From a virus (lineage: Duplodnaviria > Heunggongvirae > Uroviricota > Caudoviricetes), in IMG/VR virus record IMGVR_UViG_2529293069_000022: DNA of 35,118 bases. One strand, written 5' to 3'. The position numbers were made by a program. Below, piece by piece: positions 24,001 to 30,000 of the stretch. The stretch's first letter is position 1. Each line of letters begins with the position of its first letter.

Positions 24001-27000
24001 TGGCACAAAATATCAGGCCAATCCCTAACATTGCTTCTGCGGGTAAGATGAACGGTTTTTCATTCGAATATAGGGGGATTGCTTTCAAAGCTTCGCAGCT
24101 CGGTAAGGGTTATTCTTGGTCAGCCTTGCAGAACAAACTCAACTATCAACCGGAACGTGATAATGCTTTCCTGTTTGAACTGAAAGCATCTGTCAGTGAA
24201 GCGCCTTGTACGTTCATGACTACAGATGCTCCTGAAATCACAACAAGAGTGGTTCACAGCCCCATAGAAGCGCTTATCCATGATAACCGTGCTGGTCAGG
24301 ACGAATACACTAACGCTTCTGTAAAGCAGTTTCACTTAGAAGCTGGTGCTAAAGAAGCGTTAAAAGAAGCCCCCAACCAAAGCTATGCAGTTTCAGCGTT
24401 CAGGTGGTTGGAATACATCCCCTACCTCGATGTAATTTATCGTATGTTGAAAAACCTCAAAATCCCAACCCTTAAACGTCCTCTAAAACACAAAACCATC
24501 ACTGACGTGAGAGTGGTAGAGATTATGCCTCTCCCCCAAAAAAATCGCATCGAATCAGCACCTCAATCCAGAAGAGCTTCGCTTTCGATGTAAGGCTAGC
24601 AAGCCTTTTTGGATAAATATATCCCAATAAATTGATCGTTTATACCGATCGATATATTGACATTGATAGATTGAATCTATCATTGATTCATAATCGATCG
24701 GTACAAGTGATTTGCGTTTCTTACGAACTAAGTCAAAATGTCAATTTACATGAAATCATCTAACGATATGATTTAACTAGTCTATTTACTTATTCATTAG
24801 CTCAAGCGCAGGGTTTGAAATGGCAACTACCATCTCAACTGTAAGCCTGGACGGTTTCATACATCACCGAATATGACTTCATCTTGAACACTAAGGAACT
24901 TGTATGAGCATCTCCGCTACGAAAAGCAGGAAGAAAGAAGCTGAAGCTGGTCTTTCTGATGATCCTCGGCAAACGGAAATCACGACACCCAATTTTGTGC
25001 TGTTTGGTGAAACTTTCACATTTATTGAGACTTTCTCTGCCACTGTCATCGACTCCGATCCAGGCAATGGTCATATCTGGGTAAAAACCAACACAGGGGA
25101 TGAGAAGCAGATTTCTGACTACGGTGTCCCTTTCAGAAGTTCACACACTATCCATAAATACGAACTTCGCCAATATAGTGAGGATGGTTCGTATGATGCA
25201 TATAAAGATGCGCTTATCGTTAATAAGAAAACGGGTGAACACGAGGTAAACTTAAAAAGAAAAACCATTATTATCCCCGCTTTTCTGACAATGCTATTTC
25301 ATACTGCCTCCACAGCATCGTATTACAGAGCAATGCCTGTTCCAAAGTTTCTCACCGTTATTTTCATTTTACTTTGTGCTGCTGCACTTATTTCATTTCT
25401 CACACTACCCTGGGGATTTAAAGACGGCTACATGTGGAGCGACCACAAATACATGTGGTTTACATATCTTTTCTCAAGAGTTGGAAGTTTTATTTGTATC
25501 AATTTGATGAAAAGAAGAAGCCAGAAATTTGAAAATGAACTTAGAAATCTTATTGAGTCAGTAAAGCGCTACAATTTAAAAATAAAAAAGGATAGTGTGG
25601 TATGAAAAAAATCATAATCGTAGGATTCGTTTTTCTGACCTTGGCAGGTTGTTCTTCAGTAGGCAACCAGTCATTGAAAAATGAGACGCAGGAAAGTGTG
25701 AAAACCAAAATTGTTAAAGGCAAAACTACAAAACAGGACGTGTTAGCATCGTTCGGTGAACCTGACAGCCGTTCTTTGATCGATGGTGAAGAACAATGGT
25801 CATACACTATGTATAACAGCCAGTCCAAAGCAACCTCTTTCATCCCCGTTGTGGGACTGCTTGCAGGTGGCGCAGACTCACAAACTAAATCTCTGACAGT
25901 TTCTTTCAAAGGCGAAAAAGTCAGCACATACATCTTTAATGCTGGAACAAGCAACGTGAAGACTGGCATTTTTTAGATAAAAGACAAAACCAGCATCAAG
26001 GGAAAATTTAGCCCGCAGTTGATACCTACGGGCTTTTTACAGAAACATAAATCACTTTTTAAAGAAAGTGATTATCTTTTTCAGCCTCCCCCAAACTTTA
26101 CTGTTCATTTCTACAGTCTCAGTATTTTCCTTTAAAGAGGATCTTATTGGCTCTGGCTCTGGCTCTGGCTCTGGCTCTGGCTCTGGCTCTGGCTCTGGCT
26201 CTGGCTCTGGCTCTGGCTCTGGCTCTGGCTCTGGCTCTGGCTCTGGCTCTGGCTCTGGCTCTGGCTCTGGCTCTGGCTCTGGCTCTGGCTCTGGCTCTGG
26301 CTCTGGCTCTGGCTCTGGCTCTGGCAAAGGAGAACTAAAATCTAATGAAGTTTCAATATTATATTCATGATTTTTATGGTCTATATCAGATAATGAAATG
26401 GGTTGTTCATTCAATGATGATACAGACAGATCATTTTCAATGTAATAATTACTATCATTATATGAGCTTTCAAATTTACCCAAGAAAGCCACATATACTA
26501 ATTTAAAGTGGTTTGTCTTAAATAGAAACTTATCATTTTCATCCGGCATCCCAAAAAAGAAAACCGTCAAGTATTTTTTAGCATTCCTTTTATCTTTAAG
26601 CCCCTTATAATACCTATCAGCTTCCTTCCTTTGCTTTTCATATTCCTTCCAAAACACATCCTTCTGACTTTTATTCCAGTCAGAAACATCAATTTCAAGC
26701 GTAAATGGTTTTTGGGTTTTCTTATCCCTTGCGAGGAAAGTAATACAATGTTTATCTGAATCTTCATGCAGACGAATATTAGACTGGGCTACACCATAAT
26801 AAATAGCAGGTTTGTAATAACGTATGTTGTTTTTGTAAAAAATAAGTTGAAATGTATCTTTATAAGATCGCGTGCCATATGGAGGGATTGATAGCTGTTC
26901 ATTATGATTGCTATTATTTATGTAATAGTCAACGACTGGCTTAATACTTGATGAAGATACAGGATGTTCATTACCTTTTTTTTCATCCTTGTGATTTTCA

Positions 27001-30000
27001 TTTTTAATATTTCTGGCATTTTTAACACCACCTCTTGGTTTCACATCAATTTTTAAAAGTGATATAACCGGAGCAGGTGGCGAATTATGTTTTCTTTCGT
27101 CATTTGAAGTATGATTGTTTTTATATCTTGGATCATGAATACCACATCCATCCTTATGTTTATCGCCATATCTGAAATATGATTGATTAACATGTTTCAT
27201 AGTAAAACTACAAGGTGTGGCTTTAATTTTACAAGGCTCGTATGGGCATTCAAAACTCGTTGTCTTAATGTAAAAATCATCCATTCCACGGAGATCATTT
27301 CCATGAATGATTTCATCAGTCGAACTATCCTTCGCAATCGTCATATCTTAACCCTATGAAAATCTATGTCCTTCTAAGGATTCTAGCTTTTTCTTATTGA
27401 CGATCCAATCAAAAAATTGTACTCCAACTTACCAAAATACACGATCAAGCAGAAGTTATTAACTTAAGGGGTAGAATTAGTATTTTTCAAAGAAATTAAA
27501 TGTTTGACAGAATGATGCTGAATAACATCGCTAACCTTAGTAAGGTCAGGGAGTTGTTATACACAACTCCCCTCTATTATCGTTTGTTAAAGGTTCTGGG
27601 TATGTATGCATGGTAACAGTAAAAGCATCTTAGAGGATGCTTTTAAGCATTAATTAGATTCATGGAATTATAGATTTACGAATCTAATATTAAAATTTAG
27701 ACTATAGATTAAGTAAGTCTAATGAAAATCATACAAACACTACAACCCATATCTTTTCCTTTTATCCTTTTTCGATAATTCTCTTTTTAGAGTTGAAGCC
27801 TCATATTTCCTTTTCTCATTAGCATAGACTTTCTCTGTTCGGCTACCATTACTGACTATAAAGTTAATCAATGAAGAACATACATGCTTCATACGCTCTT
27901 TGTTGATCAAATCATCATCCAGTTTATTTATATGACTATAATATGAAAGTAGCAGAAAGGTTAAAACAACCTCCCTGTTGGAGAAGGTCATTTTTTCTAT
28001 ACCACTCTGGTATTTGATATAAAATCCTGCACAAAAAAGATATGATTGTTCGATAATTCGTTGCTCTGAGAAACCTGATTCAGCGAGTTTATCAACGAAT
28101 CGATCAAGCAGAAGAAGATACCTTTCCATTAAGTTAATATTTGTTTTGTCCATAATATGCATCCTTGCAATAGTGAAATTTTGTCGTCCTGACAAGAAAA
28201 TAAATAACATAATATTTCACCATGTCAATAGCTAAAACCTATCAATTTTATTAAAGGTATTTTGCAGGTAACGGATTATTAAGTTCTTCAATCGTTATTT
28301 GTTTAAGGTGAGCATTATAAAGCCATACTTTGAACTGCTCTAAATAGCGTTCATTTAATGCCTTCAAAGCTTCATTTTCTGCTTCAAGTCTTTTAATTCG
28401 TTGAGAAGCCACTTTTAAATTAGCAGGTTTTACAGTGTGTATTACACCAGATTTGATTGTGGTTTTTTTCACATTGAAGCTTTCCGCAATCCTTACATGA
28501 CTACTTAAGGATTGTCTTGATGGTCTTTTCCCAATAACCCTGACTAACCTATCGCACAAAGCATTCCAGGTTAGTTTTTCATCTATAGACCATGTGTTAA
28601 TAACATCTACAATCTTCTTCTCATGATAACCATTTATATGCTTAGCCATTTATTCTCCTTTTTTTATTTTTTTATGGAATTCATACCATTTATCAGCATT
28701 TATGTTCCCATCATTTTTATCATACAGTGTTCTTTTTAAAATTTTATCGTGGATATTTGAAATCGTTTCGTTATCTAAACCAGAGTTCTTAATTGGATAA
28801 TTATCACACGGCTTAAACGCATATGAGTGCTTGCAGTAGCCATGTTTTGATACAAGTACTGCACCACTACTAAGTGAGTCAAACTCATTAAGATCCACTA
28901 CTGGAATATCCTTTATTCTGTGCTCATTAACACATACTGATAACTTTTTTTCTCTTATTGCTTTAGACATTTGAAGATGCGATCTGTGGTCATAAGAAAC
29001 ATTTTGAGAAATAAGCTTACGTCCAGACCAGCGAGCAATACTAAATTCATCCATACCATTTATTTGAGCAAATGTGTTGAGAAGATGCCTTAGTTGATGT
29101 GTTCTTAGCAAATATGGGCTACCATCTTCATTTATATAACCATGTCTTTTAAAAACATTAAAATACCCTTTTATATAATCAGAATCAATGATATCAGTTT
29201 TAAAAAAATTCGTTGTAGGTCTGAATAATTTATCTGACATTTCCTTTTTATTTTGATTTAACTGTCCTTCAGTTAACAAGCAAAGCGCATTAGAATATTT
29301 GATTTTCTTCTCTCTATCATACCAAAAGAGATCAGGAGGTATATTTTCTTTAAGGGTTCCCTTCGTTGAATTAGAGTAATTCTTTTGAATTTCAGCAGCC
29401 AATAACCTCGCTTGACTTGATAATTCTTTTAATCTGCTAATAGCCTTTTTAGCTACAGGTATCATTAAAGTTGGAATCCATTTTATATTGCCTTCATACC
29501 CTTTTGCTGAAAAAAATCTTAAACCGTATCTTTGAATGCCCTTTCCATCACATTCTGTGATTTCACAATCCGCTGGCAAAGCTAAAATTTCCGATATCCT
29601 ACTCGGTGCACACATAAGTAAAGCAAGCACAGATGTAGTAAATATATCTCTTGACGATAATTGTTCATCCCGCTTTGAAAAAATCTCAGCAATCGCAATA
29701 ACTGATTTGATATCAGGCAATCTAGAATGGCCTTCCAGTGAAGAATCATAACCAGTCCAAGACTGAGTAATCCTATACCTAATTGGATTTACCCAAAATA
29801 AATAAAATGAGTTAGTCATCCTATTATCATTTAAAAATGAACTCAATTTCTCAAGTTCTTTCCCAATAGCAAATGCATGTGCTTTAGAATACTTTTCAGA
29901 GGCTATCCTTATGCATTCATCATAGATTGAATTGTTGCAATAGTTTACATTAGCTTCCATATTGATTTTAAGTAAAACGAATTCGACAATCTTCAACATT

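What the first reader, a model, noticed from the sequence alone, without database searches (positions are those of the whole stretch)
26052..27344. Protein with about 30 perfect Pro-Glu repeats encoded by a (GGCTCT)n hexanucleotide array
A 178-bp perfect tandem hexamer lies inside a 430-aa ORF whose N-terminal domain carries a Cys/His cluster (CPYEPC ... C ... CGIHD). Perfect arrays of this length are prone to slippage, and because the unit is 6 bp every change stays in frame, so the linker length could vary between cells. (PE)n is expected to form a rigid extended spacer, as in TonB. Such sequence regularity is unusual for enterobacterial coding DNA and the protein is unassigned.
Basis: seen in the sequence. 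Interest (0 to 1): 0.65.

Follow-up and report, generated by a model that had tools for sequence, protein, structure and literature searches.

The report
Known hypervariable O157 repeat in linker
The perfect Pro-Glu repeat is real, but it is the long-known, fastest-mutating repeat marker used to fingerprint E. coli O157:H7 (TR2 / Vhec1 / O157-10); it lengthens and shortens a flexible spacer in a mobile-island protein of unknown function that is related to the Avs8B (PD-lambda-4 B) family.

Summary
A 178-bp perfect hexamer array (26148-26325, 29.7 copies) encodes (PE)29P inside an intact 430-aa ORF (26052-27344, minus strand).

It is not new. Both published TR2 primers match the window exactly, and TR2 = Vhec1 = O157-10, the most polymorphic MLVA locus of E. 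coli O157:H7. PulseNet dropped it for being too variable. In 57 sampled complete genomes I find 28 alleles of 8.7-43.7 copies, all in frame.

The new part is the protein context:
- The ORF is a divergent long-form member of the uncharacterised PD-lambda-4_B / Avs8B family.
- It has a CCHC Cys/His N-domain and an OB-fold core (AF2 pLDDT 88), then a disordered acidic linker, then a conserved basic amphipathic C-terminal helix.
- The array lies in the linker.
- Relatives carry different arrays at the same site: (PE)n with other codons, (QE)27, and a 9-bp (AEV)n array that is itself hypervariable in about 250 E. coli genomes.
- The gene lies just downstream of a GInt-like four-gene recombinase operon in an ssrA island and is under purifying selection.

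Best reading: slippage-driven, largely tolerated length variation of a spacer. The protein's function remains unknown.

The parts
26148..26325 (-). Perfect hexanucleotide array (CCAGAG on the coding strand, TGGCTC on +), 29.7 copies. It encodes (PE)29P, residues 341-399. This is MLVA locus TR2 / Vhec1 / O157-10.
   Evidence: literature
26052..27344 (-). 430-aa ORF (Sakai homologue ECs_3507): a long-form member of the PD-Lambda-4_B / Avs8B family.
27135..27344 (-). N-terminal domain, residues 1-70, with the conserved C33, C38, H63, C67 (CCHC) cluster. A zinc site is likely. There is a weak hint of similarity to CoiA_N.
26439..26945 (-). Core domain, residues about 134-302, with b1-b2-b3-helix-b4-b5 topology (OB-fold-like). 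This is the part that matches the PD-Lambda-4_B profile directly.
26326..26438 (-). Acidic, disordered pre-repeat linker, residues 303-340.
26055..26147 (-). C-terminal tail, residues 400-430. Its last ~16 residues (26055-26102) are [16 protein letters not shown], a predicted basic amphipathic helix conserved in long-form relatives.
26014..26031 (+). Exact match to the published TR2 forward primer CGCAGTTGATACCTACGG.
26612..26629 (-). Exact match to the published TR2 reverse primer GGAAGGAAGCTGATAGGT.
27740..28210 (-). Small hypothetical gene (156-aa ORF, annotated as 137 aa). It is co-conserved with the repeat protein next to the recombinase operon. Function unknown.
28251..32804 (-). GInt-like four-gene recombination operon. 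It comprises two tyrosine recombinases (31593-32804 and 30278-31603), a 543-aa protein with no domain hit (28650-30281) and a 132-aa protein (28251-28649).
25602..25976 (+). BamE-domain lipoprotein gene convergent with the repeat gene. It is conserved beside it in Pantoea, Enterobacter and Xenorhabdus copies of the island.
23361..24596 (+). MobA/VirD2-type relaxase gene of the island, interrupted in this window by a stop at codon 82.

Best explanation
The array is the known VNTR O157-10 (TR2, Vhec1). It is a perfect (CCAGAG)n tract that gains and loses whole units by replication slippage. Because the unit is two codons, each event only changes the number of Pro-Glu dipeptides.

The tract lies in an intrinsically disordered, acidic linker of a cytoplasmic protein. 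That protein has a Cys/His (probably zinc) N-domain packed on an OB-fold-like core, and it ends in a short basic amphipathic helix. The protein is a long-form member of the uncharacterised Avs8B (PD-lambda-4 B) family. It is encoded as one of the first cargo genes after a GInt-type ginABCD-like recombinase operon, in a mobilisable island at ssrA.

Linker length is poorly constrained in this family, so slippage products are tolerated and accumulate. This makes the locus hypervariable without switching the gene on or off.

Inferred, not shown: the core binds nucleic acid (possibly ssDNA), and the C-terminal helix tethers it to the inner membrane or to a partner protein. If so, the repeat sets the reach of the tether (about 5-27 nm if fully extended).
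For: Identity with the marker:
- Both TR2 primers and the TGGCTC unit match exactly.
- TR2 = Vhec1 = O157-10.
- It is the most polymorphic locus. It accounted for 41 of 57 passage mutations, at 1.3-4.8e-4 per generation, and PulseNet excluded it.

Variation:
- 28 alleles in 57 genomes, 8.7-43.7 copies, all differing by multiples of 6.

Functional gene:
- dN/dS is 0.08-0.19 for the core, and 0.23 for the tail downstream of the array.
- The ORF is annotated intact (a single complete CDS) in the two E. coli genomes inspected, Sakai and 2013C-4465. The wider searches show only DNA coverage of the region in about 305-314 genomes.

Family:
- Direct PADLOC hit to PD-Lambda-4_B, E = 1.9e-7.
- The profile search links 210 representatives, including Avs8B-type proteins.

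Structure:
- AF2 pLDDT 88.1, pTM 0.86 for residues 1-310.

Linker and tail:
- 51 of 142 core-complete relatives carry 33-200-aa linkers, mostly acidic.
- Their tails have a median peak hydrophobic moment of 0.72, against 0.44 in controls, and a net charge of +4.
- There is no transmembrane segment.

Recurrent arrays at the same site:
- (PE)12, (PE)6, (PE)9 with CCT codons, (QE)27 and (AEV)n.
- The (AEV)n array is also hypervariable in E. coli.

Synteny with the recombinase operon holds at 35-99% identity.
Against: - No experiment shows that the protein is made, binds zinc or DNA, or touches the membrane.
- The CoiA_N hint is weak (3 of 116 members, best E = 0.007).
- Near-neutrality is inferred from the family-wide range of linker lengths, not measured.
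- The recurrence of long arrays at the same site in several lineages could instead reflect selection for variability.
- Avs8B itself was dispensable for Avs8 defence, so homology gives no function.
- Copy numbers were derived from assembly spans in a sample of 57 of 315 genomes, and assembly errors in repeats are possible.
Confidence: 0.75

Rival explanations
1. Adaptive length tuning. The array is maintained by selection as a contingency-type 'molecular ruler'. Populations keep a spread of spacer lengths because different lengths of the tether between the core and the C-terminal helix work better against different targets, such as phages, incoming DNA or transfer machinery.
For: Long, pure arrays have arisen at the same linker position with unrelated units: CCAGAG, CCTGAG, CAAGAG and the 9-bp GCTGAGGTT. 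Two separate E. coli paralogues are both hypervariable. The family lives in defence islands and mobile elements, where diversifying selection is common.
Against: Mutation rate rises with array length on its own, so a long array is self-sustaining without selection. Linkers of 33-200 aa of unrelated sequence occur across the family. Many orthologues keep only 2-6 PE units. No phenotype is known. Avs8B had no defence phenotype.
Confidence: 0.15
2. Decaying cargo. The ORF is a non-functional remnant of a dead island, and the array is junk DNA that happens to lie in an open frame.
For: Several neighbouring island genes are broken in this window: relaxase W82*, an 11-bp deletion in hxsB, and a 1-bp deletion in the AAA ATPase. 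In Sakai the island is truncated by IS elements next to the gene. The region is AT-rich (32-38% GC) and may be silenced.
Against: dN/dS is 0.08-0.19 over the core. The tail beyond the array is conserved (0.23), which requires the frame to be kept. The ORF is annotated intact in the two E. coli genomes inspected, and the region is covered in about 305-314 complete genomes. It is also intact in Pantoea, Enterobacter, Xenorhabdus and Erwinia.
Confidence: 0.05
3. SSB-like hub rather than a membrane tether. The OB-fold core binds ssDNA, and the C-terminal helix is a docking peptide for a partner protein such as a relaxase, coupling protein, recombinase or STAND NTPase. The repeat would play the part of the SSB intrinsically disordered linker.
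For: The layout of OB-like core, then a low-complexity linker of variable length, then a short conserved C-terminal tip mirrors bacterial SSB (own knowledge). Relaxase or T4SS genes lie nearby in several contexts.
Against: The tip is basic and amphipathic, like FtsA-type membrane-targeting helices (reference sequences from memory). It is unlike the acidic SSB tip. No constant neighbour is seen across 12 contexts. There is no SSB Pfam hit.
Confidence: 0.2

Closest known systems
MLVA locus TR2 (Noller 2003) = Vhec1 (Lindstedt 2003) = O157-10 / VNTR-10 (Keys 2005) of E. coli O157:H7
   Same: It is the same locus: identical primer sites, identical TGGCTC unit, and the same allele range (11-43 units published, 8.7-43.7 here). 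It is the most variable O157 marker.
   Different: Nothing at the DNA level. In the typing papers I could read, I found no discussion of the encoded protein.
Avs8B / PD-lambda-4 gene B (Vassallo 2022; renamed in bioRxiv 10.1101/2025.07.02.662641)
   Same: Homologous Cys/His N-domain plus core. The link rests on a direct profile hit and on intermediate sequences. Both are carried on islands at or near ssrA.
   Different: Avs8B is about 304 aa, core only, and sits beside the STAND NTPase Avs8A. This protein has no Avs8A neighbour and carries a linker plus a C-terminal helix. Identity to the short forms is only about 20%.
TonB (Glu-Pro)n-(Lys-Pro)n spacer
   Same: Alternating Pro-acidic dipeptides that probably form an extended, stiff spacer linking a membrane-proximal element to a distal domain.
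   Different: TonB has an N-terminal transmembrane anchor, a periplasmic location, a short fixed EP/KP tract and a TonB C-terminal domain. None of these is present here.
Bacterial SSB architecture (OB fold, disordered linker, C-terminal tip)
   Same: The same three-part layout, with linker length and composition varying freely between relatives.
   Different: No sequence homology. There is an extra Cys/His domain, and the tip is basic and amphipathic rather than acidic.
FtsA / MinD C-terminal membrane-targeting amphipathic helices
   Same: A short basic amphipathic helix at the extreme C-terminus after a flexible linker. The peak hydrophobic moment is 0.66 here, against 0.78 for the FtsA tail (sequence from memory).
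   Different: The proteins are unrelated, and membrane binding has not been tested here.
GInt genomic islands (ginABCD; Bardaji 2017)
   Same: Integrase, integrase, a non-catalytic recombinase-like protein and a small protein in that order at one end of an island, with cargo starting right after the fourth gene.
   Different: Homology to the reference Gin proteins and the island ends were not tested. This island also carries a MOB relaxase.
Trypanosome procyclin (PARP) EP repeats
   Same: An (EP)n composition, which gives the only Pfam hit.
   Different: The score is 31.7 bits against a cut-off of 100. The match is compositional, not homology.

Membership tests
O157:H7 MLVA locus TR2 / Vhec1 / O157-10 | Both published TR2 primers flank the array | tested here: met
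   Exact single matches at 26014-26031 (+) and 26612-26629 (-), with none in shuffles. Primer sequences are from PMC2246123 Table 2.
O157:H7 MLVA locus TR2 / Vhec1 / O157-10 | 6-bp unit TGGCTC | tested here: met
   TRF consensus TGGCTC, period 6. The paper lists TGGCTC for TR2.
O157:H7 MLVA locus TR2 / Vhec1 / O157-10 | High copy-number polymorphism among O157:H7 isolates | tested here: met
   28 alleles in 57 genomes, 8.7-43.7 copies. Published alleles span 11-43 units, and it is the most polymorphic locus.
PD-lambda-4 (Avs8) defence system | Gene B homologue (PADLOC profile PD-Lambda-4_B) | tested here: met
   Direct hit E = 1.9e-7 over residues 151-284. The family profile retrieves proteins that hit the profile full-length, with E from 1e-14 to 1e-189.
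PD-lambda-4 (Avs8) defence system | Adjacent gene A: a STAND NTPase with an Mrr nuclease domain (Avs8A) | tested here: not met
   Of the nine flanking ORFs scanned with PADLOC, seven gave no match and two gave only weak, unrelated matches (AbiEi, PDC-M55C); none matched PD-Lambda-4_A. The annotated neighbours are recombinases, a lipoprotein and hypotheticals. True Avs8B sits beside a 1284-aa gene.
GInt genomic island | Three consecutive tyrosine-recombinase-like genes plus a small fourth gene at one end, the third lacking recognisable catalytic signatures | tested here: met
   The 403-aa and 441-aa products hit Phage_integrase. The 543-aa and 132-aa products have no domain hit. The order matches GInt rather than SE. 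The module is conserved in six other genomes.
GInt genomic island | Sequence homology to reference GinA-D, flanking imperfect direct repeats, and an AT-rich 3' end | not tested
TonB | N-terminal transmembrane anchor and TonB C-terminal domain | tested here: not met
   No TonB Pfam hit. The highest 19-residue Kyte-Doolittle mean is 0.78, so there is no transmembrane segment.
Procyclin / PARP (PF05887) | Score above the Pfam gathering threshold | tested here: not met
   31.7 bits against a cut-off of 100, and the match covers the repeat only.
Phase-variable contingency gene (on/off switching by repeat slippage) | A repeat unit not divisible by 3, so that slippage shifts the frame or alters promoter spacing | tested here: not met
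   The unit is 6 bp in codon phase 0. All 57 length differences are multiples of 6. Slippage changes length, not expression state.
OB-fold nucleic-acid-binding proteins | Five-stranded barrel with a helix between b3 and b4, and structural similarity to known OB folds | tested here: inconclusive
CoiA N-terminal zinc-finger domain (PF25164) | Pfam match | tested here: inconclusive
   The window protein gives no hit. Three of 116 relatives hit weakly, best E = 0.007.

The most novel reading that the evidence does not exclude
Long-form Avs8B-family proteins are membrane-tethered ssDNA or DNA sensors of mobile elements. They would act on DNA entering or leaving the cell, by conjugation or phage injection. 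Their linker arrays, (PE)n, (QE)n and (AEV)n, would be evolved mutable rulers. Rapid length changes would create population heterogeneity in the reach of the sensor, making this a length-based rather than on/off contingency mechanism.
Probability: 0.08. Interest if true: 0.7.

Novelty: already known. Interest (0 to 1): 0.3.

Why it matters
As a DNA feature it adds nothing. The locus has been used for O157:H7 outbreak typing since 2003, and its instability is well measured.

The useful by-products are annotational:
- The most unstable O157 marker lies in a gene that is under purifying selection, not in junk.
- The gene belongs to the Avs8B family, whose role in the Avs8 defence locus is unexplained.
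- Long-form members share a three-part layout (core, linker, amphipathic tail) that suggests concrete experiments.
- Repeat-expanded linkers recur in the family. They include a second hypervariable 9-bp array in about 250 E. coli genomes (CFT073 among them) that could serve as a typing marker.
- Many database entries of these proteins are truncated because short-read contigs break at the arrays.

Tried and rejected
- I first recalled TR2 as O157-37. The literature showed that O157-37 has 6-9 units and that TR2 = O157-10, so I corrected this.
- Pfam, NCBIfam and a PDB sequence profile gave no real family.
- The first AF2 model, built from 15 sequences, was poor (pLDDT 59.7). It was replaced by a model from 144 sequences.
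- The afdb50 fold library was unavailable. BFVD gave nothing significant.
- There is no homologue in the phage collection.
- A literature search for ECs3507 found nothing. A search for the 9-bp unit found nothing relevant.
- ARAGORN found no tRNA or tmRNA gene in the window, because only the last 36 nt of ssrA are present.
- The small co-conserved neighbour (orf156) gave only unnamed homologues.
- The genome-contig scan returned only 7 loci, so the context statistics are anecdotal (12 contexts).
- A phase-variation (on/off) reading was rejected because the unit is 6 bp.
- The (GS)n and (AL)n plus-strand ORFs were rejected as repeat artefacts.
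Full report
**1. The observation**

- Tandem Repeats Finder finds one strong array at 26148-26325. It has period 6 and 29.7 copies, with 100% matches and no indels (sequence).
- It lies inside a 430-aa ORF on the minus strand, 26052-27344.
- On the coding strand the unit is CCAGAG in codon phase 0. The product contains (PE)29P at residues 341-399, followed by a 31-residue tail, [31 protein letters not shown].
- The Cys/His cluster (C33, C38, C45, H63, C67, H70) is present.
- The (GS)n and (AL)n ORFs on the other strand are created by the repeat and are not genes.

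**2. What the array is**

The window is E. coli O157:H7 / O55:H7 chromosome. The 3.2-kb region matches 392 of 5426 complete E. coli genomes, with 300 at 99% identity or more. In Sakai the ORF is ECs_3507, inside the region annotated as prophage Sp17.

A full-text search for the unit TGGCTC with O157 and VNTR led to a paper listing the Noller (2003) primers for locus TR2, repeat TGGCTC. Both primers match the window once each and exactly, at 26014-26031 (+) and 26612-26629 (-), bracketing the array.

Two papers state that TR2 = Vhec1 = O157-10. I had first recalled TR2 as O157-37, which the literature corrected.

This locus is repeatedly reported as the most polymorphic O157 MLVA marker:
- Its diversity index was 92.2% in one study.
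- In serial-passage experiments it accounted for 41 of 57 mutations.
- Per-strain rates were 1.3-4.8e-4 per generation, and starting alleles had 11-43 units.
- Both single-unit and multi-unit insertions and deletions were seen.
- PulseNet excluded it because it changes within outbreaks.

**3. Independent check in genomes**

I used a 921-bp query tightly flanking the array. It matched 315 E. coli genomes. In a 60-row sample spread over the ranking, 57 rows cover both flanks. Their spans differ from the query only by multiples of 6. They give 28 alleles, from 8.67 to 43.67 copies.

Isolates from the same studies with near-identical upstream coordinates differ from one another. Cattle strains 140, 121 and 137, and 141 have 26.7, 25.7 and 19.7 copies. 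The Z-series bovine strains range from 11.7 to 26.7.

The data clearly contradict that outcome, so the slippage idea stands. It has, however, been textbook knowledge for this pathogen for two decades.

**4. The protein**

Pfam gives only a sub-threshold compositional hit to trypanosome procyclin, and NCBIfam gives nothing meaningful. PADLOC gives PD-Lambda-4_B at E = 1.9e-7, with residues 151-284 matching profile positions 161-294 of 303.

Close homologues are few: 19 clusters, in Enterobacterales plus Moritella. A profile of them searched against 1.84 billion representatives finds 210 proteins at E <= 1e-3. These fall into two architectures:
- About 300-aa proteins that are core only. They hit PD-Lambda-4_B full-length (for example P0140, E = 4.7e-189).
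- 350-550-aa long forms.

PD-lambda-4 has been renamed Avs8. Avs8A is a STAND NTPase with an Mrr nuclease domain that senses HK97-fold capsid proteins. Avs8B has no recognised similarity to anything and was dispensable for defence. Family membership is therefore established, but it brings no function. This locus is also not an Avs8 system, because no Avs8A-like gene is adjacent.

**5. Structure**

With 15 sequences AF2 was poor (pLDDT 59.7). With 144 sequences, residues 1-310 fold confidently as one unit (pLDDT 88.1, pTM 0.86).
- Residues 1-70 form a small beta/alpha domain. It carries C33, C38, H63 and C67, which are conserved in at least 90% of the family.
- Residues 75-132 are disordered, except for a conserved NSPPAP-ISLL segment.
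- Residues about 134-302 have b1-b2-b3-long helix-b4-b5 topology.

Scanning 116 family members against Pfam, the only recurring hint is the CoiA N-terminal zinc-finger domain, in 3 members with best E = 0.007. A zinc-binding, nucleic-acid-binding core is thus a reasonable inference. It is not demonstrated.

**6. Linker and tail**

Of 142 relatives with a complete core, 51 carry at least 45 further residues.
- Their linkers are 33-200 aa, of unrelated low-complexity sequence and usually acidic (median net charge -5).
- The last 20 residues are basic (median +4).
- The tails contain a strongly amphipathic 11-mer, with a median peak hydrophobic moment of 0.72. Windows drawn from the cores have a median of 0.44 and a 95th percentile of 0.72.
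- Examples are KIISWLRKFIR, LVRRLWRWLFK and IFSKILNFFRK. In the window protein the segment is [11 protein letters not shown], followed by TFFKK.

AF2 predicts a helix at 417-429. There is no transmembrane segment.

The tail resembles FtsA-type membrane-targeting helices. The comparison sequences came from memory; their moments are 0.78 for FtsA and 0.38 for MinD, against 0.66 here. It could equally be a partner-docking tip, as in SSB. I cannot separate these two readings with the tools at hand.

The PE array lies wholly within the linker. The O157 allele range corresponds to about 5-27 nm if fully extended. The resulting total linker lengths stay within the family-wide range.

**7. Repeat-expanded linkers recur in the family**

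Several relatives carry arrays at the same position.
- Orthologues at 87-99% identity carry (PE)12 in Pantoea sp. and (PE)6 in Enterobacter genomosp. O. In Xenorhabdus littoralis the contig ends inside a PE array.
- Pantoea dispersa carries (QE)27. Its unit CAAGAG is one base away from CCAGAG and is homogenised across the array, with 98% matches.
- A 52%-identical Erwinia orthologue has (PE)9 built from CCTGAG.
- More distant orthologues keep only 2-5 PE units.
- A 61%-identical E. coli / E. albertii paralogue has a 9-bp array, GCTGAGGTT = (AEV)n, at the same position. It is followed by the same kind of tail, KIWTGIRKLISFFKK.

That paralogue is present in 251 of 5426 E. coli genomes, including CFT073. 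In 56 sampled genomes the insert ranges from 48 to 642 bp, about 5-71 copies, with 33 different lengths. Of these, 53 are in frame.

Many database entries for these proteins are 'partial' because short-read contigs stop at the array. One 1019-member E. coli cluster ends at the position where the array begins.

**8. Is the gene alive?**

Nei-Gojobori dN/dS between the window gene and its orthologues is 0.08-0.19 over the core. For the tail downstream of the array it is 0.23, in the one comparison with enough substitutions. The frame through the array is therefore maintained by selection.

This stands out because neighbouring island genes are broken in this window. The relaxase has a stop at codon 82, hxsB has an 11-bp deletion, and the AAA ATPase has a 1-bp deletion.

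**9. Genomic context**

From 9797 onward the window aligns with the ssrA-ypjA island of strain 2013C-4465. The gene order is: integrase, DUF6119, the hxsADCB radical-SAM cluster, an ABC-three-component system with an AAA ATPase, a relaxase, a hypothetical gene, a BamE-like lipoprotein, the repeat protein, a 137/156-aa hypothetical gene, and then a four-gene recombinase module.

That module consists of two tyrosine recombinases, a 543-aa protein with no domain hit and a 132-aa protein. Its order and content match GInt islands (ginABCD), in which cargo begins right after ginD and may be co-transcribed. They do not match SE elements. I did not test homology to the reference Gin proteins or map the island ends.

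The arrangement of module, repeat protein, small ORF and relaxase is conserved in two groups of genomes:
- at 87-99% identity in Pantoea, Enterobacter and Xenorhabdus;
- at 35-52% identity in Pantoea ananatis, Enterobacter cloacae and Erwinia.

Elsewhere, family members sit in other mobile or defence settings:
- beside Avs8A and a retron-like gene at ssrA;
- after a Tn7-like transposition module;
- in a TrwC-relaxase element;
- next to type I restriction and McrBC genes;
- between Qat and CBASS systems;
- in the transfer region of Vibrio pVA1-type plasmids;
- next to MobQ on a Yersinia megaplasmid.

No homologue was found in the phage collection. The constant theme is mobile elements and defence islands. 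No single partner gene is constant.

**10. Verdict**

The finding is a rediscovery of VNTR O157-10 / TR2 / Vhec1.

The most likely account is mutation-driven, largely tolerated length variation in the disordered linker of a functional, mobile-element-borne Avs8B-family protein. Its biochemical role is unknown. I infer a zinc/OB-fold nucleic-acid-binding core held on a variable acidic spacer by a C-terminal amphipathic helix.

The recurrence of expanded arrays at the same site leaves open, at low probability, that variability itself is selected.

Interest as a discovery is low. The annotation of the family architecture and the second hypervariable array are modest, checkable additions.

Noticed in passing
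L005 10990-11195; L015 3623-3763; 251 E. coli genomes: A 61%-identical paralogue (P0010, present in CFT073 and many ExPEC) carries a 9-bp (GCTGAGGTT)n = (AEV)n array at the same linker position. In 56 sampled genomes the insert is 48-642 bp (about 5-71 copies) with 33 lengths. Three are out of frame. I found no paper naming it as a VNTR marker.
   Followed up: partly
L014 9020-9183 (Pantoea dispersa S68): The 87%-identical orthologue has (CAAGAG)27 = (QE)27 in place of (PE)n. A single-base change in the unit has been homogenised across the whole array.
   Followed up: partly
window 1-9796, junction near 9797-9832: The left 9.8 kb does not align with the ssrA island of strain 2013C-4465. It looks like part of a lambdoid prophage (Rfam lambda cIII thermoregulator at 2056-2114). 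Only the last 36 nt of ssrA are present at the junction, and ARAGORN finds no tmRNA gene in the window.
   Followed up: partly
window 23604-23606; about 15914; about 20265: Compared with strain 2013C-4465, the island relaxase has a premature stop at codon 82, hxsB has an 11-bp deletion, and the AAA ATPase of the ABC-three-component system has a 1-bp deletion. The reference strain has its own frameshifts in DUF6119 and hxsC. The island is decaying in different ways in different strains, while the repeat gene stays intact.
   Followed up: partly
window about 13550-16900 (-); L002 17665-21056: A His-Xaa-Ser (hxsABCD) radical-SAM peptide-maturation cluster lies in the same island. It is also found near the GInt-like module in Pantoea ananatis.
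   Followed up: no
window 17613-21768 (+): A very AT-rich block (about 30% GC) is annotated in the reference strain as an ABC-three-component system plus an AAA ATPase. It lies next to an integrase fragment and looks like a separately inserted conflict or defence module.
   Followed up: no
P0001 and other clusters; L007, L008 and L013 ends: Public protein entries for this family are often 'partial'. A 1019-member E. coli cluster stops at the position where the array begins, and several contigs end there. The arrays break short-read assemblies, so repeat lengths in other species are hidden.
   Followed up: partly
L026 6001-7128 (Vibrio parahaemolyticus pVPE61a and about 38 other Vibrio plasmids, mostly pVA1-type where listed): AHPND-type Vibrio plasmids carry a 28%-identical family member (375 aa). 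It sits inside the conjugative-transfer region, between TraF and lytic transglycosylase genes and an H-NS gene and T4SS coupling-protein gene.
   Followed up: no
window 27740-28210 (-): The small hypothetical gene beside the repeat gene has more than 340 homologue clusters across Enterobacterales, far more than the repeat protein (19). Some sources call it a transmembrane protein. Its order relative to the repeat gene is swapped in the divergent island version.
   Followed up: partly
window 7975-8013 and 23746-23781: Two weak tandem repeats of about two copies each (periods 21 and 17), reported by TRF.
   Followed up: no
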